64,000 nt of DNA, from positions 832,001-896,000 of the forward strand of contig CH464491.1 of NCBI GenBank assembly GCA_000002445.1. Direction: 5' to 3'. Position 1 is the first letter of the stretch. Every line of letters begins with the position of its first letter. The translations under genes were made by a program, and so were the position numbers. The notes beneath the pieces were generated by a model, which worked only from the letters and a program-made list of their open reading frames with translations, made no database searches and was not told the DNA's origin. Source of the stretch: Trypanosoma brucei (Eukaryota). Of this stretch, positions 49,969-56,751 are shown piece by piece.

Positions 49969-52900
49969 TCACGTCGATTCCAACGACGCCTCATCATCAC
50001 TATTCTCCCCGTTCCGCGATGCAGCTTCGTCCTGGGACTCAGTCGTCTCTTCCTCCCCCATCGTCCACGTATCACTTCCGTCGCCACCGCCATCCACCTC
50101 GGCAGAATCCGAGTCACTCGTTGTTTCTGTGTTGCTGTAATACTCCGGGGAGTCGGAAGCGCTTGCCCATTCATAAGAATCGCTGTCATCTTCACCATCA
50201 TCGTCATCTTCGTCATAACCTCCAGACCAAGAACCGTTGTTTCCTACCTCGTCATCGTCATCGCTCTCCGCAAGACCTGCCCCACTATCATTACTCCGAT
50301 CGTTTTGTGGGAGCGAGAACGCTTGTTGACCAGGTAGCGGGCCGGAGGATGTTGAGAACACACGCACTACGGCTGCTGCGTCACCATCGAGAATCGCAGC
50401 ACAGTAACGGTCCGATGGTTCAATGGCAAAGGCTCTGAAGGCTGGGCGCACTTCTGTTGAAAACACGGTCTCAAATGTGTAACTATCAACCACTGAAAGA
50501 ACTGGTGTAGCCGTGTGAGACAACGCAGATGCTTCGCGAAAGCTATAAATCACACGTCTAAAAGGGCTGGTGTAGAAACTGCTGCTGTTCCTGAAGGAAG
50601 GTACGGTCTGCAGTATGGACAGGGTCCGCAAATCCCATACCTTTTCATCAATCATCACAAGGGGGTTGAACGGATGAAAAATATTGCAAAAGGAGTTGGT
50701 AAAACGGTCAAAACGACAGATGGGTCTGTCACCGCACCGAACATCCCACAGAACAGCGTCACTGAGAACAAGCTGAGAGAACTGGTCAAAGGTGGCTACG
50801 TTGTCAACGTTTTCCCCAACCCACGACGGATCGCTAAAATGACGCACCTCACATTGCGCCCTGAGGTCGTAAAGACGGCAGGTGTGCTCCTCGTCACACG
50901 TTGCTAACAAATATGTGTTACAACAAGAGAACATGGCCGCACGGCTATCCTCAACCTGGTACTTCACCGCAGGAAGCTCATTACGACCCATCACAGCTAC
51001 CTTGTGCTCCGCGTTTACCAACCCCAGTAAGGCACTATCGTCAGACACGTAAATTCCAACGACACTACCGTTATCGAAGGCCAAGTGCTGTTCTGACAAC
51101 TTGTCGTCCGTGGAATCATCTGGGAACGTGTCAAACAGAGCAATCCCGCCTTCAGAGGTTCCCACAACTAGTGTCTCCCCACCATCGCAAAAGGCCACAC
51201 TATCGCCCTGAAGTTCATCTCCACTCCCCGTTATGTCGAATAAATAACCCGGGTTACGGTACGTAAAGTGGTTTTCGTTCGTCCTTGTGCGTAGTGAGAA
51301 ATCTAATCCCATCTTTTGCACCAAGCGCCTGTTAAACGCGTTTCGCGTTTGATCAACAGGGGCATCCAGTGGGTAGTAAACATGGCCCTTCCGCAAATCA
51401 AATTGAGGCAAGGTTGTAATGGGATTGGTGCACTTCTCATGCTGTTGTCTCAGGTAAGAGCGCACAATGCCATCAAGGGTGGGTGCCCCGATGGGGGACA
51501 GTGCCATATCGGGCGAGGCATTCGCCGAATGTTGTGCCATTGCGATGTCACACGAAAGAGGAGCGTCACGCCGAAGGGCTGAAGCCGCATTCAGCAACCC
51601 CTCCGTCTCTAAGTGGCGGCAAATCAGCTCCAACAGTGATTCACGCGAATAACTTATGTGAGATCGAGCGATGACAGCCTGGCGTTGCTCCAACTCGACG
51701 GGGTCCACAGAAACGGACGGAGTGGTCCTATTCGTCTCATCGAAGAGAAAGCACTTGATGTTCTCCATAAACCGACCTGTTGCGTGCACCTCGCTCGCCA
51801 CATAGCGCGGCCCCATCATGGTTAAGTACTCCTTTTGAATATCTCCATATTGGGTCATAAGCTCCCGCGCCACTGAGCCAACCCCTAGAGCATCAAAGAG
51901 AAGACGTGTATCAGCATACCGTCGAAGGGTAACCATCAGTTGCAGTGCCCGTGCGACCACGGGAAACAACTGCAGCTTAACCGACATTGCCGGATCCTTC
52001 CGAACTTTCAAAACCTCCAACAGCGTACGAACGCCGTCGTTTGCTCGGATCATACCACAAACGCGGTTAAAGGTGGCCACACAAACATCGTCGTTTTTGT
52101 CAGCGGGTAATCTCGTTAAATTCAACAGTATCTGCAACGAAGTAGCAACACACGGAATGAGATGGGACTCCCTAGAGGCGTTTCCGTTTTGGAACGCCGA
52201 TGTTAATTCACTCACTATCATAATCAAGTGCGCAACCCCCGATTCAGGGTACTGAGCATCGGCAACCAAGGGTCGGAAGAAGGGTACAACTACCAAAACA
52301 CAAAGCACATTTAGCGATGCGGCAAGTAAGTCCCATCGACCCTGTGTGAAGTAGAACTGCGCACAACGTAGCAGTATCTGGTGAAAATTATTATCCGCGA
52401 AGAAACGAAATGCAGCAAGCCTATCTCGAGTAAGCAGGCTTTGGATTGTTTCGGTAGATATATCCGGAATAGTGGCAGAAGGGGCCGACAAATAACCGAG
52501 AACCGATTCCACGGTGGCAGGGTCTCGGGGCAGTGACCTCTCTGGTGCAGAATCGGTCACTAAAACCGATAAAAATCTGTGCTTCCGGAATATGACCCTC
52601 GTGGCCAACATCAGATGAGAAATCAAGTAAACGTAGGCGCACTTTAACGCCGCCAATGTTACTCCTGGACAAATAACATCAAACTGTTCTTCCGAACTCT
52701 GTAACAGCCGCTCTATTAAGCCAAGTGTTGCTTGGGGCCCTTGATGCGCGTCAAAAAAGGTAACAACATAAGGGAAACTCAAAGCAAGGAAAAGGAAGCC
52801 TCCCGCGCTGCCTTGTACGTCGTGACTCGAGGCAACTTTCCACTGATGCAGAATGAAGTTCAATATCGGCTCGAAGTATTCACCATGGTTTCGAAGCAGG

Positions 52901-55035
52901 TTCTCAAACACCGCAGCTCTAGCTAATTGAGACAGCACGATGCAGCACCCATACATTGTCACTGGATCTAAACGGCCATCAGTTAACTTTATGATCTGCT
53001 TCAAACCTCCCAGTTCTAGGAAAATCAAAGCGAGTTTCTTGTGGGTAAACAAAGAGTTTAGAACCCAACCAACCCTACCCACCAACTCCCGCATTTTTCG
53101 GTAATGGCTCTTAGTTGTTTGTAGTTCAGCACTCCAGTTCAAACGAACTTCAAGTAATTCGCGTTCGTCCGCGTTCATTTCCACATTGTCCTCTGATAAG
53201 ACGAACCCCAATGTTTTTTTCTCCTCCGTTTCCACAGCTGCAGTAGCTGCATCCAAATCGACTCGACTCAATACGTAGAACATGGATTCCACTGTTTGGA
53301 ACTGGAGAGCAGGTAGAACTGTCTCTCGTTGGTGACAAAGTGCTCCCACGACGGCGCAACACAACATAAACTCTTCCATCTTGAAGTCAATGTTTTCTGG
53401 CATCAGGGTCTGAATATTCAAAAAATGATCCCACGGAACAACTTGATCGTTTGGACCCTTGTACTTGTAGCGGAAGAATCGGTCCCCCTCACTCTCGTGA
53501 GGGGGACAGTCGACACTCCTTATCCAACGAACAACCACTTCCTCTGCCGTAGTTACCTCCACAACCTCACCAAAATCGCATTTTTTCCCTTGGTCATTGA
53601 AGCACCACATAGGACCGCGACCTACCCTGTCACCCCTTCGTGGCTGCCAAAAATCTGGTAACTTCCGAAAACGGGGTGATTCCTCTCCTGTTTCGAACTT
53701 CCTCTTTTTGTGGGGCCTAGATATCAGATCATCTCCTCCCCCTTGATTAAATTCTGCCAGGGCAGATTCATGTTCCACCTCTTTTATAGGTATGGTTGAC
53801 CTATCAAACATTGGAGATGAAGAGGCTTGCTCAGATCCCGCAAACTGCGAATGTGAAGAAAGGGACATCTGCTTTGATTGGGGCAACACTTGTTGCGCTT
53901 CCTTCACGCATGGCACCCCTACGGAGCTCCCAGCAGCAACTTCGGGTGACGTCTTACGTGAGAGCGTGGGAGAATTCAGCTCACTCCTGATAACGGCAGA
54001 GTAGTGTCTGAAGGGGGATCGACTCCATCTTTGTGAGGGAGATATCCCATTGTTTTCAGGATAACCAAATATCCGGTGAACCAGATGTCGCAATCTCTGA
54101 AGCAAAACCCGCGGCAACTGTTGACTAAGTGCCTCACCTACCGCTTGGTCATCCTCTTCAAGCCTGCTAAACACCAGAGAGAGGGCAATAAGCCGTTTTT
54201 GTCTCTTCTTCTCTCCTATGATAACTTTACAGAGATCTTGTATAGGTGTAGAGTCAAAAAAATTTCCCCGTGATCCCTCCACCAGCAAAAACGCCGTATA
54301 AGTGGCGATACTTTGTGTCCTCACCACACTTTTATAAAGGATTGGCTCACTCTGAATTGATCTTCCCTCAGATCTCGACAACAAATCATCCCGTTCCACA
54401 TTAAAATTAATCATTTCTCCCATGTATTCACAAAAGGGTGCATTATTGCAAACCGTTTTGATAAGAGACTCAAAAGGCGCGCGATCCTGTAGACTCATCG
54501 TGCTAGCATAAACGTCAGTACAACGTTTATACTCATCATGAAGAATTTTCGCTAATTGACCCCACAGAAAAAGTTCAAGATTTATGTACTCTTGTAGCAG
54601 GGTCAGTGTTTGTTTGTCACCGCTTTCGGTGTCTATTGTTTCTCCCTGTGACTCGGGGGAAGTATTCCTTGCCTGAGCCCTAAGTCTTTCTTTTAGCATT
54701 TTAATCTGCTTCTGGGCCTTCGTGAGACGTCGCATGATGTGTTTGAGTGTACCGACTAATTCGGCTGACACAATGATGTCATCTTCGAAGTTTTCCTCCC
54801 CGCTCCGCTCTGCAAGCTCATTGAGAACATTAAACGACATATTATTTGCAGCATCGTCTACCGATAAAGTCGTAAAGTGGTCAGTGCCATCTGCAAGACG
54901 ACTCCCTTGCAGATTTTCCATCAAGTTAAAAATGGTAGGAAAAAACTTTGTAGAAAAGTAGAGCTTTAAATAAACGAGTGGTGGTAAATTCAGAACTGCA
55001 TCAAAGGGTAGCAATTTAGTATAACATCTTATCAA
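49969..55035 (-). CDS. DCAF1/VprBP-like protein: helical repeat N-terminus, LisH motif, WD40 propeller, acidic C-terminal tail
   Basis: 1688 aa. LisH-like SRESLLELICRHLETEGLLNAASAL precedes a WD-repeat region (ATCDEEHTCRLYDLR, AVLWDVR, KVWDLRT). The extreme C-terminus is Asp/Glu/Ser-rich (DDDDEVGNN...DEDDDDGEDDSDSYEW). This architecture matches the CUL4-DDB1 substrate receptor DCAF1. Confidence 0.5.
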   Translation of the reverse strand: MIRCYTKLLPFDAVLNLPPLVYLKLYFSTKFFPTIFNLMENLQGSRLADGTDHFTTLSVDDAANNMSFNVLNELAERSGEENFEDDIIVSAELVGTLKHIMRRLTKAQKQIKMLKERLRAQARNTSPESQGETIDTESGDKQTLTLLQEYINLELFLWGQLAKILHDEYKRCTDVYASTMSLQDRAPFESLIKTVCNNAPFCEYMGEMINFNVERDDLLSRSEGRSIQSEPILYKSVVRTQSIATYTAFLLVEGSRGNFFDSTPIQDLCKVIIGEKKRQKRLIALSLVFSRLEEDDQAVGEALSQQLPRVLLQRLRHLVHRIFGYPENNGISPSQRWSRSPFRHYSAVIRSELNSPTLSRKTSPEVAAGSSVGVPCVKEAQQVLPQSKQMSLSSHSQFAGSEQASSSPMFDRSTIPIKEVEHESALAEFNQGGGDDLISRPHKKRKFETGEESPRFRKLPDFWQPRRGDRVGRGPMWCFNDQGKKCDFGEVVEVTTAEEVVVRWIRSVDCPPHESEGDRFFRYKYKGPNDQVVPWDHFLNIQTLMPENIDFKMEEFMLCCAVVGALCHQRETVLPALQFQTVESMFYVLSRVDLDAATAAVETEEKKTLGFVLSEDNVEMNADERELLEVRLNWSAELQTTKSHYRKMRELVGRVGWVLNSLFTHKKLALIFLELGGLKQIIKLTDGRLDPVTMYGCCIVLSQLARAAVFENLLRNHGEYFEPILNFILHQWKVASSHDVQGSAGGFLFLALSFPYVVTFFDAHQGPQATLGLIERLLQSSEEQFDVICPGVTLAALKCAYVYLISHLMLATRVIFRKHRFLSVLVTDSAPERSLPRDPATVESVLGYLSAPSATIPDISTETIQSLLTRDRLAAFRFFADNNFHQILLRCAQFYFTQGRWDLLAASLNVLCVLVVVPFFRPLVADAQYPESGVAHLIMIVSELTSAFQNGNASRESHLIPCVATSLQILLNLTRLPADKNDDVCVATFNRVCGMIRANDGVRTLLEVLKVRKDPAMSVKLQLFPVVARALQLMVTLRRYADTRLLFDALGVGSVARELMTQYGDIQKEYLTMMGPRYVASEVHATGRFMENIKCFLFDETNRTTPSVSVDPVELEQRQAVIARSHISYSRESLLELICRHLETEGLLNAASALRRDAPLSCDIAMAQHSANASPDMALSPIGAPTLDGIVRSYLRQQHEKCTNPITTLPQFDLRKGHVYYPLDAPVDQTRNAFNRRLVQKMGLDFSLRTRTNENHFTYRNPGYLFDITGSGDELQGDSVAFCDGGETLVVGTSEGGIALFDTFPDDSTDDKLSEQHLAFDNGSVVGIYVSDDSALLGLVNAEHKVAVMGRNELPAVKYQVEDSRAAMFSCCNTYLLATCDEEHTCRLYDLRAQCEVRHFSDPSWVGENVDNVATFDQFSQLVLSDAVLWDVRCGDRPICRFDRFTNSFCNIFHPFNPLVMIDEKVWDLRTLSILQTVPSFRNSSSFYTSPFRRVIYSFREASALSHTATPVLSVVDSYTFETVFSTEVRPAFRAFAIEPSDRYCAAILDGDAAAVVRVFSTSSGPLPGQQAFSLPQNDRSNDSGAGLAESDDDDEVGNNGSWSGGYDEDDDDGEDDSDSYEWASASDSPEYYSNTETTSDSDSAEVDGGGDGSDTWTMGEEETTESQDEAASRNGENSDDEASLEST

Positions 55036-55845
55036 GGCTAGTCACATCTCGGTCGTCGCAACGTGAGAAATGGATAAGCAGAAAATATATATAATTCTCA
55101 CAATATACAAAAAAGGGAGAGAAAGATAGAGAGAAGTAAAACCAACCCATATAACATTGTCTCTTCTTTTTCCTTCTGCTCCCTACTCCTAATGACCTCA
55201 CAGGCTCACTGTGTTTCCCTCAGACATAAAACACGGAACATATCTATAACACACGGTGTTCGCTACCCTCCTAACATTGGTGCCACAATGGCGTTAAACC
55301 TACATATGCGTAAGAACCTTTTATTTCTTCTCACCACTCACTGGGACGCTAACTCGAGTCCTACATTATGAATGAAGCCAAAAATGAGAAGAGAGTCAGC
55401 GCAACCCTGCCTAACTTGTATGCCAGCTATCCTCAATAAAAGCGTCTGCCCCATTCACAAAATATATAGCGATAATACGTTATTGCTTTTCATGGTAATC
55501 GACTGCTACAACAAAATGTGCTCTAAAAAGATAAGCACACGAAATGCGAACGATTACAAAAAACTGTGGAACGATAACAAGCTACTCATATGCTATTCTC
55601 ACGGTGTATTGTTTCACATGCACACACGTACCTCAAAGACATGTTTTCCACAAAATTATTTTTCCTCCAATAATGATAATTGCGAATGTGGGGTTCATCA
55701 AGTTAGGTTCAAAACACTGAAAGCACAAGTGCATATAATAATTCCTGCAATACTTACGGGCACCACAATTGGCTCTAAGCATATTTTCTCTGCGATTACA
55801 ACTCGTTTGAATAATTTAACGGACAAAAACTACTACTGCAATTAA

Positions 55846-56751
55846 TCAAGTAATTTTTCTGTAGATAAAAAACGGTGCCTCATCGTTCCAGTCGGCTGTC
55901 AGGTGAACATAAGATACAAGCTTCATTTGGCTCCCAACCAAAAGATTTTCATGCAAGGGGCGAGATGTTACCACACACAACAAAGCAGGCAAAGACACCA
56001 CGAGCTCCGTCAACCTCTTCATCAACTCGTCATCAAACATCCACGAGTGGGTGAATATAACATTGACATTTTCTTCAACCATTCTCCGCGCACAATTGAC
56101 AAAGTCATCTTGTATAAAGATAGCCTGCTTGCCGGAAAAGTTCTCTGGAAAATATGACAGGGCCTTAGCAAAAGCCGTTGTCGCAGCGCGATGTCGGGAG
56201 GGTATAACTTCAACGCCTACAACCTTCCTGCAGTTGGTCTCAGCCAGTAACTGAAGGCACACATTTCCAACGCCACTACCTATATCACAAAAAACAGCGC
56301 TTTCCTCAATAGAAACTACTGAATTATCAGTTGTATTTGCAAGGTGATCTCCCGTTACACAGCGGCGGAGCTGAGGTACAATGTGAGATGTCCACATTTT
56401 GCGCACACCGTCAAAGTCGATAACGCCATTCTGAGCGAAAACATTCGGCTTCACAGTGAGAATTTCTTCACCTGCCTCCAATTGGCCGCGTTCTTCGTAT
56501 TGGTCGTTCAAATGTTCATATATCCGCTGATATATTGCCTTGAAATTCCCTGGGGAAAATAACAAACTGCTCGATTTTCGTACAGCAATAAAAGAGTGTG
56601 TCTGTTTATTGTTTAAGTACACCAACAGAGCTCCAATAGCACTACCCACTCCAACAGACATGGCGGCAAAACGTAGCCCCCTAGTTCTCAACAATAGGTA
56701 ACTAAATGCAAGAAATGAGCATCCGGCAGCTGCAGCGTAGAAAAAGGTCAT
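55846..56751 (-). CDS. DOT1-like histone H3K79-type methyltransferase with an unusual hydrophobic N-terminus
   Basis: FCDIGSGVGNVCLQLLAETNCRKVVGVEV (DOT1 motif I: [26 protein letters not shown]), FIQDDFV and VNVIFTHSWMFDDEL (VIFVNNFAFGPEV) match the DOT1 catalytic core. The first ~50 aa form two hydrophobic segments. Confidence 0.7.
   Translation of the reverse strand: MTFFYAAAAGCSFLAFSYLLLRTRGLRFAAMSVGVGSAIGALLVYLNNKQTHSFIAVRKSSSLLFSPGNFKAIYQRIYEHLNDQYEERGQLEAGEEILTVKPNVFAQNGVIDFDGVRKMWTSHIVPQLRRCVTGDHLANTTDNSVVSIEESAVFCDIGSGVGNVCLQLLAETNCRKVVGVEVIPSRHRAATTAFAKALSYFPENFSGKQAIFIQDDFVNCARRMVEENVNVIFTHSWMFDDELMKRLTELVVSLPALLCVVTSRPLHENLLVGSQMKLVSYVHLTADWNDEAPFFIYRKIT

What the first reader, a model, noticed from the sequence alone, without database searches (positions are those of the whole stretch)
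55846..56751. DOT1-family methyltransferase core preceded by two hydrophobic helices
The DOT1 signatures are unambiguous (DIGSGVGNVCLQ...TNC..VGVE; VIFTHSWMFDDEL). Known kinetoplastid DOT1A/DOT1B are soluble nuclear enzymes, yet this ORF begins MTFFYAAAAGCSFLAFSYLLLRTRGLRFAAMSVGVGSAIGALLVYL, which is two predicted TM-like segments. I can think of three possibilities:
- the start codon is upstream of the real one (but no in-frame Met precedes the domain after residue 31, and that residue sits inside the second hydrophobic segment)
- this is a membrane-tethered or organelle-targeted DOT1 paralog
- it is a third, uncharacterised DOT1-like gene

Any of the last two would be unusual for this family.
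Basis: partly seen in the sequence, partly recalled or inferred. Interest (0 to 1): 0.55.

Follow-up and report, generated by a model that had tools for sequence, protein, structure and literature searches.

The report
Membrane-anchored third DOT1-like methyltransferase of trypanosomes
This is the known but unstudied third DOT1-type methyltransferase gene of Trypanosoma brucei (Tb927.11.3200); its two N-terminal membrane helices are real and conserved, and it most likely methylates a non-histone, possibly mitochondrial, protein.

Summary
Window 55846..56751 (minus strand) encodes a 301-aa protein identical to T. brucei TREU927 XP_828402.1 / Q386J1 / Tb927.11.3200. The literature calls it the 'third DOT1' and leaves it uncharacterised. 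It is neither DOT1A nor DOT1B. The DOT1 core is solid: Pfam E=2.5e-16, and the fold matches Legionella LpDot1 and human DOT1L.

The two N-terminal hydrophobic helices are not a start-codon artefact. The same pattern (hydrophobic helix, basic loop, Gly-rich helix, linker) is kept from Bodo to Leishmania. It is also encoded upstream of truncated gene models.

The catalytic domain is acidic. It lacks DOT1L's nucleosome-binding loop and C-terminal helix, and it has an invariant THSWMFDD where DOT1L has VNNFAF. A non-histone substrate is therefore likely.

More distant relatives carry MLRR-type basic N-termini followed by one hydrophobic segment, which looks mitochondrial. In Phytomonas, which has lost mitochondrial cytochromes, the syntenic orthologue has lost 25 of 50 invariant residues, including the SAM-binding motif.

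My best reading is a membrane-tethered, probably mitochondrial, protein methyltransferase linked to cytochrome-dependent respiration. Its localisation, substrate and activity are untested. It is a new variant of a known kind and moderately interesting.

The parts
55846..56751 (-). Complete CDS of the third DOT1-like methyltransferase (301 aa plus stop). It is identical to T. brucei TREU927 XP_828402.1 / Q386J1 / Tb927.11.3200.
56689..56745 (-). Hydrophobic helix 1 (residues 3-21, FFYAAAAGCSFLAFSYLLL). Orthologues have a small-xxx-small pattern here (FGGAVVGT).
   Evidence: KD 1.75. AF2 helix 2-20. Conserved as a hydrophobic segment in full-length orthologues.
56671..56688 (-). Short basic loop (residues 22-27, RTRGLR). 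The orthologue consensus is (T/K)PR(A/T)FR.
   Evidence: Alignment A1. This is the best-conserved part of the N-terminus, with mean top-residue frequency 0.62.
56614..56670 (-). Hydrophobic helix 2, Gly-rich (residues 28-46, FAAMSVGVGSAIGALLVYL). It ends in the conserved Y45-x-N47.
   Evidence: KD 1.91. AF2 helix 24-49. Y45 stays invariant even in the decayed Phytomonas copy.
56554..56613 (-). Flexible linker (residues 47-66) between the hairpin and the catalytic domain.
   Evidence: pLDDT below 50 for residues 50-66. Length varies among bodonid-like sequences.
56416..56553 (-). N-terminal part of the catalytic domain (residues 67-112). It carries the invariant G89, G94-E95-E96, T99-V100, V104-F105, Q107, G109 and D112. 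By manual alignment this is the counterpart of DOT1L's YGET...VAQ SAM/substrate loop.
   Evidence: Invariant columns in A1. The manual alignment to the DOT1L-like P0082 sequence is an inference.
56317..56415 (-). Family-specific insertion (residues 113-145): a long helix followed by a variable loop, between the VFAQ loop and motif I.
   Evidence: AF2 helix 113-133. Low conservation, 0.47. No counterpart in the DOT1L alignment.
55945..56316 (-). DOT1 Rossmann-type core as matched by Pfam PF08123 (residues 146-269).
56263..56286 (-). SAM-binding motif I, DIGSGVGN (residues 156-163).
   Evidence: Read directly from the DNA. Aligned to DOT1L DLGSGVGQ. Invariant in A1.
56029..56052 (-). Invariant post-beta4 motif THSWMFDD (residues 234-241). 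It replaces DOT1L's VNNFAFGP, so the catalytic Asn position is occupied by His235.
55846..55944 (-). C-terminal strands (residues 270-301) with ADWNDEAPFFIY, the counterpart of DOT1L's SW(305)TGKPVSYY lysine-channel segment. The protein ends 4 residues later, so no C-terminal helix follows.
   Evidence: hhalign. Invariant D287, W288, N289, P293 and F294.
56755..56800 (-). Pyrimidine-rich tract (about 56774-56800) followed by the first AG (56756-56755), 3 nt before the ATG. This is a candidate spliced-leader acceptor and would place Met1 inside the mRNA.
   Evidence: Sequence read. Inference only; no RNA data were examined.

Best explanation
The ORF is Tb927.11.3200, the third DOT1-fold, SAM-dependent methyltransferase of kinetoplastids. 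It defines a discrete subfamily that seems confined to kinetoplastids and unidentified relatives that look euglenozoan.

Shown here:
- It has a complete DOT1 catalytic core with intact SAM-binding residues.
- The core is preceded by a conserved helical hairpin: hydrophobic helix, basic loop, Gly-rich helix.
- A roughly 17-residue flexible linker joins the hairpin to the core.

Inferred:
- The hairpin tethers the enzyme to a membrane. The catalytic domain swings on the linker and methylates a protein, most likely on a lysine, at or near that membrane. The substrate is not nucleosomal H3K76.
- The membrane is most likely mitochondrial, with the inner membrane and an intermembrane-space-facing domain as my first choice.
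- The substrate is connected with the cytochrome-dependent part of the respiratory chain (cytochrome c, complex III or complex IV).

My sub-probabilities:
- Real, translated, conserved membrane anchor: 0.85.
- Non-histone substrate: 0.7.
- Mitochondrial location: 0.5.
- Substrate tied to cytochromes or respiration: 0.2-0.25.
For: Identity:
- The protein is an exact match to XP_828402.1 / Q386J1, which is Tb927.11.3200, listed apart from DOT1A and DOT1B.

Fold and cofactor site:
- Pfam DOT1 E=2.5e-16.
- AF2 mean pLDDT is 84.
- Foldseek top hits are LpDot1 9ne1 (E=6e-11) and human DOT1L (about 1e-10).
- D156, G158, G160, E181 and D216 align with DOT1L D161, G163, G165, E186 and D222.

Anchor:
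- Two hydrophobic segments with a basic loop occur in essentially all full-length kinetoplastid orthologues.
- They are also encoded upstream of the truncated Leishmania and T. theileri gene models.
- AF2 predicts a helix-turn-helix followed by a disordered linker.

Not a nucleosome enzyme:
- The catalytic domain has pI 4.7-6.2 in all 28 sequences.
- The region matching DOT1L loop 273-286, which contacts the nucleosome, is about 11 residues shorter. The chain ends right after the last strand, so the helix 319-331 is absent. The LpDot1 preprint gives these same two absences as the reason that enzyme methylates a non-histone protein.
- The VNNF motif is replaced by the invariant THSW.
- The family profile barely detects TbDOT1A (13.1 bits).

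Mitochondrial and respiratory link:
- More distant family members start with MLRR, MYRR, MAYRR or MFGPPKR followed by one Gly/Ala-rich hydrophobic segment. From my own knowledge, this is the pattern typical of euglenozoan mitochondrial presequences.
- Both hydrophobic helices are only marginally hydrophobic and Gly-rich (summed Hessa dG +1 to +7). From my own knowledge, this is more typical of mitochondrial inner-membrane helices than of ER anchors.
- The syntenic Phytomonas Hart1 orthologue has lost 25 of 50 invariant residues, including motif I, GEE..TV and THSWMF. It drops below the Pfam threshold at 18.2 bits.
- The neighbouring gene evolves normally in Phytomonas, so the decay is gene-specific.
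- Phytomonas has secondarily lost mitochondrial cytochromes and other haemoproteins.
- N-terminally YFP-tagged protein was undetectable in bloodstream forms. From my own knowledge, bloodstream forms lack cytochrome respiration.
Against: - There is no experimental localisation. The ID was not found in the TrypTag, hyperLOPIT or importome supplements that are held, although those files may be cut.
- It is absent from the 2017 compiled mitoproteome, which does list neighbouring IDs.
- The T. brucei N-terminus has no MLRR-type presequence.
- Basic residues flank helix 2 on both sides, so the positive-inside rule does not fix the topology.
- The organisms behind the distant homologues are unidentified, and their start codons are automatic predictions.
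- The Phytomonas decay is a single lineage, and Phytomonas lost other things besides cytochromes. A second decayed lineage (P0081) comes from an unknown organism.
- RIT-seq shows no fitness loss in any condition, including procyclic forms.
- The failure to detect the tagged protein may only reflect an N-terminal tag disrupting the anchor.
- Substitution of the catalytic Asn leaves open a non-lysine substrate or low activity.
Confidence: 0.55

Rival explanations
1. The protein is tethered to the ER or nuclear envelope, with the hairpin as a monotopic or re-entrant anchor and the catalytic domain facing cytosol or nucleoplasm. It methylates a cytosolic or nuclear-peripheral protein, or, in the extreme version, histone H3 at perinuclear chromatin.
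For: - Two N-terminal hydrophobic helices fit an ER hairpin or signal anchor equally well.
- The protein is absent from the compiled mitoproteome and was not found in the importome supplements.
- The T. brucei protein has no MLRR-type presequence.
- The DOT1 fold has histone precedents.
Against: - Both helices are marginally hydrophobic and Gly-rich, which is poor for Sec61 integration.
- The catalytic domain is acidic and lacks DOT1L's nucleosome-binding loop and helix.
- Distant homologues carry mitochondrial-type basic N-termini.
- Catalytic motifs decayed specifically in Phytomonas, which keeps ordinary chromatin and ER but has lost cytochromes.
Confidence: 0.25
2. The hydrophobic N-terminus is a cleavable targeting sequence, either a signal peptide or a long euglenozoan mitochondrial presequence. 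The mature enzyme would then be soluble in the matrix, the intermembrane space or a secretory lumen.
For: - From my own knowledge, euglenozoan presequences often combine a basic motif with a hydrophobic stretch.
- Distant homologues show MLRR followed by one hydrophobic segment, often ending in AFC.
- The linker after helix 2 is disordered and could hold a processing site.
Against: - In kinetoplastids the segment is about 50 residues long with two helices.
- It has conserved positions (the PRxFR loop, Y45, N47) kept even in the decayed Phytomonas copy. That is more conservation than a cleaved presequence normally shows.
- No small-x-small cleavage motif follows helix 1.
Confidence: 0.12
3. This is an annotation artefact. 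Translation really starts at Met31 or further downstream, and the protein is a soluble DOT1 paralogue.
For: - Gene models for T. b. gambiense, L. infantum/donovani, T. theileri and T. rangeli start downstream.
- A 271-aa version exists in an assembly-derived set.
- An AG inside codons 7-8 could serve as an alternative splice acceptor.
Against: - Met31 is not conserved in other species.
- The upstream reading frame is open and encodes the same hairpin in Leishmania and T. theileri, with stop codons just before the first ATG in T. theileri.
- The pattern is preserved from Bodo to Trypanosoma.
- A start at Met31 would still leave helix 2.
Confidence: 0.05

Closest known systems
Kinetoplastid DOT1A (Tb927.8.1920) and DOT1B (Tb927.1.570), the H3K76 di- and tri-methyltransferases
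   Same: Same organism and same Pfam family (DOT1). All are small, 'minimal' enzymes of about 300 residues or fewer.
   Different: - It is a different gene on chromosome 11.
- The family profile scores only 13.1 bits (E=0.36) against the TbDOT1A structure sequence, versus 43.5 bits against human DOT1L.
- TbDOT1A ranks only 44th by fold.
- DOT1A and DOT1B are nuclear, or nuclear and cytoplasmic, and have no N-terminal hydrophobic hairpin.
- The literature describes a zinc-binding beta-hairpin N-terminal domain in DOT1A. No cysteine cluster is seen here.
Human DOT1L / yeast Dot1p catalytic domain
   Same: - Class I methyltransferase fold with DOT1 signatures.
- Motif I DxGSGVG(Q/N), GVE after beta2 and D-F after beta3.
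- The C-terminal (S/D)W...P..Y segment.
- A probable YGE...VAQ-type loop.
   Different: - VNNFAF is replaced by the invariant THSWMF, so the catalytic Asn position holds His.
- The loop corresponding to DOT1L 273-286 is shortened.
- There is no C-terminal nucleosome/ubiquitin-binding helix and no basic tail.
- The surface is acidic.
- A 33-residue insertion precedes motif I.
- There is an N-terminal membrane hairpin.
Legionella pneumophila LpDot1 (PDB 9ne1)
   Same: - It is the best structural match (Foldseek E=6e-11, TM-score 0.73 normalised to the target).
- It is a DOT1-fold enzyme lacking the same two nucleosome-binding elements.
- It was shown to methylate a non-histone lysine, SFPQ K518.
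   Different: LpDot1 is a soluble bacterial effector with nuclear localisation signals. It has INSSTL at the post-beta4 motif and no membrane anchor. Sequence identity is only about 21%.
Mitochondrial membrane-anchored seven-beta-strand lysine methyltransferases of animals (ATPSCKMT/FAM173B, ANTKMT/FAM173A). This comparison rests on my own knowledge and was not tested here.
   Same: The working principle proposed here is the same. An N-terminal transmembrane segment both targets and anchors a class I methyltransferase domain, which then trimethylates a lysine of an inner-membrane energy-conversion protein.
   Different: They belong to a different methyltransferase subfamily, not the DOT1 type, and have a single transmembrane helix rather than a hairpin. 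No sequence relationship was detected. Only the generic Methyltransf_* Pfam families scored, all below threshold.

Membership tests
DOT1 family (Pfam PF08123) | Significant match to the family HMM above the curated threshold | tested here: met
   60.3 bits against a cut-off of 23, E=2.5e-16, residues 146-269.
DOT1 family (Pfam PF08123) | Class I (Rossmann-type) methyltransferase fold most similar to solved DOT1 structures | tested here: met
   AF2 model with pLDDT 84. All of the top 50 Foldseek PDB hits are DOT1 enzymes, at probability 1.00.
DOT1 family (Pfam PF08123) | SAM-binding residues: motif I DxGSGxG, an acidic residue after beta2 (GVE) and D-F after beta3 | tested here: met
   DIGSGVGN at 156-163, GVE at 179-181 and DDF at 215-217 align to DOT1L D161-Q168, E186 and D222-F223. 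They are invariant or nearly so in A1.
DOT1 family (Pfam PF08123) | Post-beta4 motif VNNF with the catalytic Asn (DOT1L N241) | tested here: not met
   The aligned positions read T234-H235-S236-W237, invariant in the subfamily. Other non-histone DOT1-likes also differ here: INSSTL in LpDot1 and CST in roughly 200-aa homologues.
DOT1 family (Pfam PF08123) | C-terminal lysine-channel segment SW...P.SYY | tested here: met
   ADWNDEAPFFIY aligns with VSWTNKPVPYYLH. W288 corresponds to W305.
Nucleosomal H3K79/K76 methyltransferases (functional class of DOT1L, Dot1p, TbDOT1A/B) | Nucleosome-binding elements: DOT1L loop 273-286 with acidic-patch arginines, the C-terminal helix 319-331 and a basic surface | tested here: not met
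   The loop region is about 11 residues shorter and lacks the arginines. The chain ends 4 residues after the last strand. Domain pI is 4.7-6.2 in 28 of 28 sequences.
Nucleosomal H3K79/K76 methyltransferases (functional class of DOT1L, Dot1p, TbDOT1A/B) | Methylation of H3K79/K76 on nucleosomes | not testable with these tools
   This needs an in vitro assay or a knockout with histone mass spectrometry.
Kinetoplastid DOT1A / DOT1B orthologue groups | Being the same gene as, or a close paralogue of, Tb927.8.1920 or Tb927.1.570 | tested here: not met
   The exact sequence is Q386J1 / Tb927.11.3200. The profile scores 13.1 bits, E=0.36, against TbDOT1A chain 8fjm_A.
Kinetoplastid DOT1A / DOT1B orthologue groups | Nuclear localisation | not testable with these tools
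   An N-terminal YFP fusion was not detectable in bloodstream forms, and there was no TrypTag entry as of June 2021.
Integral membrane (hairpin-anchored) proteins | Two conserved helical hydrophobic segments of transmembrane length | tested here: met
   KD 1.75 and 1.91 over 19 residues. AF2 helices at 2-20 and 24-49. Conserved across kinetoplastids.
Integral membrane (hairpin-anchored) proteins | Hydrophobicity sufficient for autonomous membrane insertion; membrane association shown | tested here: inconclusive
   Summed Hessa-scale dG is +1 to +7 kcal/mol, which is marginal. This was a crude sum without position weighting. No dedicated transmembrane predictor and no fractionation data were available.
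Mitochondrial proteins of kinetoplastids | Detection in mitochondrial proteomes or importomes, or a recognisable presequence | tested here: inconclusive
   The protein is not in the 2017 compiled mitoproteome, although neighbouring IDs are. It was not found in the importome supplements. Distant homologues have MLRR-type N-termini, but the T. brucei protein does not.

The most novel reading that the evidence does not exclude
This would be the first non-nuclear eukaryotic DOT1 enzyme. It would be a lysine methyltransferase of kinetoplastids and their relatives, anchored in the mitochondrial inner membrane by a Gly-rich hairpin and facing the intermembrane space. It would modify a component of the cytochrome-dependent respiratory chain. 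One candidate is the trimethyl-lysine reported decades ago in Crithidia and Euglena cytochrome c (from my own memory, not verified here), whose writer is unknown in this lineage. The enzyme would have decayed to a pseudo-enzyme in Phytomonas when the cytochromes were lost.
Probability: 0.2. Interest if true: 0.75.

Novelty: new variant of a known kind. Interest (0 to 1): 0.55.

Why it matters
DOT1 enzymes are treated as dedicated nucleosome (H3K79/K76) methyltransferases. In trypanosomes they are studied for replication control and antigenic variation. A conserved, membrane-anchored DOT1 subfamily with a remodelled substrate site would show that the DOT1 fold was recruited to a non-chromatin, probably organellar, task in a eukaryote. 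This would parallel the Legionella effector LpDot1.

Practical consequences:
- 'DOT1' (Tb927.11.3200) should probably be removed from lists of chromatin writers.
- The failed N-terminal tagging has an explanation, since the tag would sit on the anchor. C-terminal tagging should be used instead.
- The Phytomonas decay gives a concrete, cheap hypothesis for substrate hunting: the methyl-proteome of cytochrome c and complexes III and IV in procyclic knockouts.

Tried and rejected
- **Literature by identifier.** Searching the ID, the UniProt accession and 'DOT1C' found nothing in main texts. One search used guessed old-style IDs and was wasted.
- **Supplement look-ups.** TrypTag, hyperLOPIT and importome supplements gave no hit. 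Stored files may be truncated, so this is weak negative evidence.
- **Pyrih et al. 2023.** The sub-mitochondrial map is not held.
- **afdb50 fold search.** The library was unavailable, so organism names for distant homologues could not be obtained that way.
- **Cluster look-ups.** Most distant members are unnamed metagenome or SRA proteins. One is filed under Ancoracysta twista, whose culture (from my own knowledge) contains a kinetoplastid prey.
- **Pfam scan of the isolated N-terminal hairpins.** No significant family was found, so no Mic10-type or glycine-zipper assignment can be made.
- **Rfam, tRNA and tandem-repeat scans** of the window and the adjacent ORF-poor stretch found nothing.
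- **Recent duplicate of DOT1A.** Considered and rejected: 13 bits against TbDOT1A versus 43 bits against DOT1L.
- **Wrong start codon.** Considered and rejected because the N-terminus is conserved upstream of the truncated gene models.
- **PRMT-like resemblance.** THSW and the acidic cluster recall the PRMT THW and double-E loops, but the spacing does not match and no test was possible, so I give it no weight.
Full report
**1. What is there**

Window 55846..56751 on the minus strand is a 301-codon ORF that begins at the first ATG after an in-frame stop.

The protein is identical over its whole length to T. brucei brucei TREU927 XP_828402.1 / EAN79290.1 / UniProt Q386J1, on the 5.26-Mb chromosome 11 record. 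The supplement of Staneva et al. 2021 (PMC8559703) lists Q386J1 as 'DOT1', Tb927.11.3200. It is listed next to, and distinct from, DOT1A (Tb927.8.1920, nuclear) and DOT1B (Tb927.1.570, nuclear and cytoplasmic).

The window is one minus-strand polycistronic unit. A metacaspase gene lies upstream, at 62643..63797.

**2. The DOT1 domain is genuine**

- Pfam DOT1 scores 60.3 bits, E=2.5e-16, against a threshold of 23, over residues 146-269.
- phmmer against PDB sequences finds human DOT1L (about 4e-8), a 227-aa chain 9ne1_A (7e-8) and yeast Dot1p.
- An AlphaFold2 model built on a 28-sequence alignment has mean pLDDT 84.3 and pTM 0.73.
- All of the best 50 Foldseek PDB matches are DOT1 enzymes. The top hit is 9ne1, the Legionella 'bacterial DOT1L', followed by human DOT1L. 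T. brucei DOT1A (8fjm) appears only at rank 44.
- The SAM-binding residues align with those of DOT1L: DIGSGVGN, GVE and DDF.

**3. It is neither DOT1A nor DOT1B, nor a close copy of DOT1A**

The gene identifiers differ. In addition, a profile of the subfamily scores 43.5 bits against human DOT1L, 31.8 against LpDot1 and 28.9 against yeast Dot1p. Against the TbDOT1A structure sequence it scores only 13.1 bits (E=0.36).

An exhaustive HMM search of 1.84 billion representatives finds 26 proteins with E<=1e-30. These also cover the region upstream of the Pfam core. Scores then drop sharply to generic DOT1-like proteins. This is therefore a discrete subfamily.

Reviews already mention 'a third DOT1 ortholog' (PMC7468196). 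Another paper refers to 'three DOT1-like methyltransferases, two of which' have known activity (PMC10951340). I found no paper that characterises it.

**4. The N-terminal hydrophobic helices are real and conserved**

In the T. brucei protein:
- Residues 3-21 and 28-46 have 19-residue Kyte-Doolittle means of 1.75 and 1.91.
- AlphaFold2 predicts helices at 2-20 and 24-49 (pLDDT 73-78).
- A linker at residues 50-66 has pLDDT below 50.
- The globular domain begins at residue 67.

Across orthologues:
- Full-length orthologues of about 300 aa come from Trypanosoma, Leishmania, Leptomonas, Lotmaria, Novymonas, Bodo and many unnamed kinetoplastid-like sequences.
- All share the same plan. A hydrophobic helix with a small-xxx-small pattern comes first, then a basic loop with consensus (T/K)PRxFR. 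A Gly-rich helix ending in Y-x-N follows, and then a linker.
- Met31 of T. brucei is not conserved.
- The shorter gene models are truncations. In a Leishmania chromosome and in T. theileri, the in-frame DNA upstream of the annotated start encodes MYSTSVLFGCTAVGTLVVLKIVVTPRAFRIIATGVVVGAVGG... and MVAREVLLIAGVSFFTLVSSFFRPKLVRLVAFSCAFGCSVGYGL... respectively. In T. theileri, stop codons sit immediately before that ATG.
- The T. b. gambiense model is flagged as low quality.

Upstream of the T. brucei ATG there is a pyrimidine-rich tract followed by an AG 3 nt before the start. This is compatible with Met1 lying inside the mRNA, but I examined no RNA data.

The 'wrong start codon' option is therefore rejected.

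**5. The catalytic domain does not look like a nucleosome enzyme**

- hhalign against an animal DOT1L-like sequence pairs VNNYAF with the invariant THSWMF, so His235 sits at the catalytic Asn position. It pairs SW..P.YY with DW..PFFIY.
- The stretch equivalent to DOT1L loop 273-286 is about 11 residues shorter.
- The protein stops four residues after the last strand, so the DOT1L helix 319-331 has no counterpart.
- The LpDot1 preprint names these same two elements as essential for nucleosome binding. They are missing in LpDot1, which does not methylate histones but methylates SFPQ K518.
- The domain (residues 67-301) is acidic in all 28 aligned sequences, with pI 4.7-6.2.
- The subfamily has its own invariant signature ahead of motif I: G89, G94-E95-E96, T99-V100, V104-F105, Q107, G109 and D112. 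By manual alignment I read this as the equivalent of DOT1L's YGET...VAQ loop with a 3-residue insertion.
- A 33-residue family-specific insertion follows that signature.

**6. Where might it sit?**

This part is inference.

- Both helices are only marginally hydrophobic and Gly/Ala/Ser-rich. A crude Hessa-scale sum gives +1 to +7 kcal/mol.
- Among 83 sequences carrying the subfamily motifs, the kinetoplastid clade has the two-helix hairpin.
- The more distant members start with MLRR, MYRR, MAYRR, MFGPPKR or MWSAPKR followed by one Gly/Ala-rich hydrophobic segment. Others have a longer presequence-like leader (MLGMRRLNS......RFFTP...) followed by one transmembrane-like segment.
- From my own knowledge, an MLRR-type motif followed by a hydrophobic stretch is the typical euglenozoan mitochondrial targeting pattern. 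A presequence followed by a stop-transfer segment usually yields an inner-membrane anchor with the C-terminal domain in the intermembrane space.
- The contigs that carry two of these distant genes have tightly packed, same-strand, intron-less genes. That fits kinetoplastid or diplonemid-like genomes, but the organisms are not identified.

**7. The Phytomonas natural experiment**

One hit, P0069, is CCW71494.1 of Phytomonas sp. Hart1.

- It is the positional orthologue. As in T. brucei, Leishmania and T. theileri, it is followed by the roughly 1600-aa DCAF1-like WD40 gene.
- It keeps the length, the hairpin and the C-terminal DW...FYVY.
- It has lost 25 of the 50 residues that are invariant in the other 28 sequences:
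  - Motif I reads EIGCEFGN.
  - GVEIIPSR reads GMETNLTF.
  - THSWMFDD reads VRLNILDK.
  - The GEE..TV loop is gone.
- Its Pfam DOT1 score falls to 18.2 bits, below threshold.
- Its catalytic domain is 36% identical to that of Leptomonas. The much more distant T. brucei and Bodo-like proteins are 53% and 49% identical to Leptomonas.
- The acceleration is gene-specific. For the neighbouring gene, Leishmania-Phytomonas identity (45%) exceeds Leishmania-T. brucei identity (39%), as phylogeny predicts.

Phytomonas has secondarily lost mitochondrial cytochromes and other haemoproteins and bypasses the haem-requiring respiratory complexes (PMC3547853; PMC8262978). The 'conserved in all kinetoplastids except Phytomonas' filter was the route by which the kinetoplastid cytochrome c synthetase was found.

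The simplest reading is that the enzyme's catalytic function became dispensable when the cytochrome branch was lost. This points to a mitochondrial, respiration-linked substrate.

A second decayed lineage (P0081) exists, but its organism is unknown.

**8. Experimental data in the literature**

- N-terminal YFP tagging at exactly this ATG integrated correctly, but no protein was detectable in bloodstream forms. This fits several explanations: a tag placed on a targeting or anchor sequence, low abundance, or stage-specific expression. From my own knowledge, bloodstream forms lack cytochrome respiration.
- RIT-seq class 1-1-1-1 means no significant fitness loss in any condition.
- TrypTag had no entry in June 2021.
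- The ID is absent from the 2017 compiled mitoproteome, which does contain neighbouring IDs.
- It was not found in the held TrypTag, hyperLOPIT or importome supplements, which may be truncated.
- The mitochondrial assignment therefore has no direct support and one weak piece of counter-evidence.

**9. Verdict**

- The interpretation as a third, membrane-tethered or organelle-targeted DOT1-like gene is supported.
- The gene is already annotated and has been noted in passing in the literature.
- I did not find the following described anywhere:
  - the conserved hairpin anchor;
  - the loss of nucleosome-binding features;
  - the THSWMFDD active-site variant;
  - the decay in Phytomonas.
- I file it as a member of the DOT1 fold family. 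One defining catalytic residue differs. It is not a member of the functional class of nucleosomal H3K79/K76 methyltransferases, because the structural features needed for that were tested and not met.
- Most likely mechanism: a membrane-tethered SAM-dependent protein methyltransferase, probably mitochondrial and linked to cytochrome-dependent respiration.
- Confidence: about 0.85 for the anchor, 0.7 for a non-histone substrate, 0.5 for a mitochondrial location and 0.2-0.25 for the cytochrome link.

Noticed in passing
window 57000-62600: This stretch of about 5.9 kb has no ORF of 200 aa or more. GC rises to 0.53-0.60, against about 0.40-0.46 in the flanks. It lies between the DOT1-like gene and the metacaspase gene. 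No tRNA, Rfam family or tandem repeat was found. It could be a long UTR or a decayed mobile element.
   Followed up: partly
window 62643-63797 (-): A metacaspase gene (Peptidase_C14, E=1.6e-34). The listed ORF starts at a GTG upstream of the likely real start.
   Followed up: partly
window 49969-55035 (-): The 1688-aa ORF is listed from a TTG; the likely true start is MENLQG. It encodes a DCAF1-like WD40 protein. It sits immediately downstream of the DOT1-like gene in T. brucei, Leishmania, T. theileri and Phytomonas, so synteny is conserved.
   Followed up: partly
L006:6001-6900 (Phytomonas sp. Hart1, HF955211.1): The positional orthologue of the DOT1-like gene is an intact 299-codon ORF. It keeps the N-terminal hairpin but has lost half of the invariant residues, including the SAM-binding motif. 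It looks like a pseudo-enzyme.
   Followed up: yes
P0081 (265 aa, SRA-assembly protein, organism unknown): A second lineage in which the hairpin and the C-terminal DW..Y motif persist while motif I, the GEE..TV loop and THSWMF are gone. It has no Pfam hit.
   Followed up: partly
P0001 (T. b. gambiense DAL972 orthologue): This gene model starts at the equivalent of Met31 and carries a 7-residue insertion (KALFFVI) just before motif I. NCBI flags it as 'LOW QUALITY PROTEIN', so an assembly or annotation problem is likely.
   Followed up: no
window 55372-55845 (+) and 55903-56157 (+): Plus-strand ORFs of 157 and 84 aa abut or overlap the DOT1-like gene. Both have low-complexity, atypical composition and lie opposite to the polycistron's direction. 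They are almost certainly not genes.
   Followed up: no
L001, L002 (ENA ERZ25074155) and L003 (JGI 3300066132): These metagenome contigs carry distant family members. Their genes are tightly packed, same-strand and apparently intron-less, which resembles kinetoplastid or diplonemid-like polycistrons. L001 and L002 are two near-identical copies on contigs of 279 kb and 1.8 Mb.
   Followed up: no
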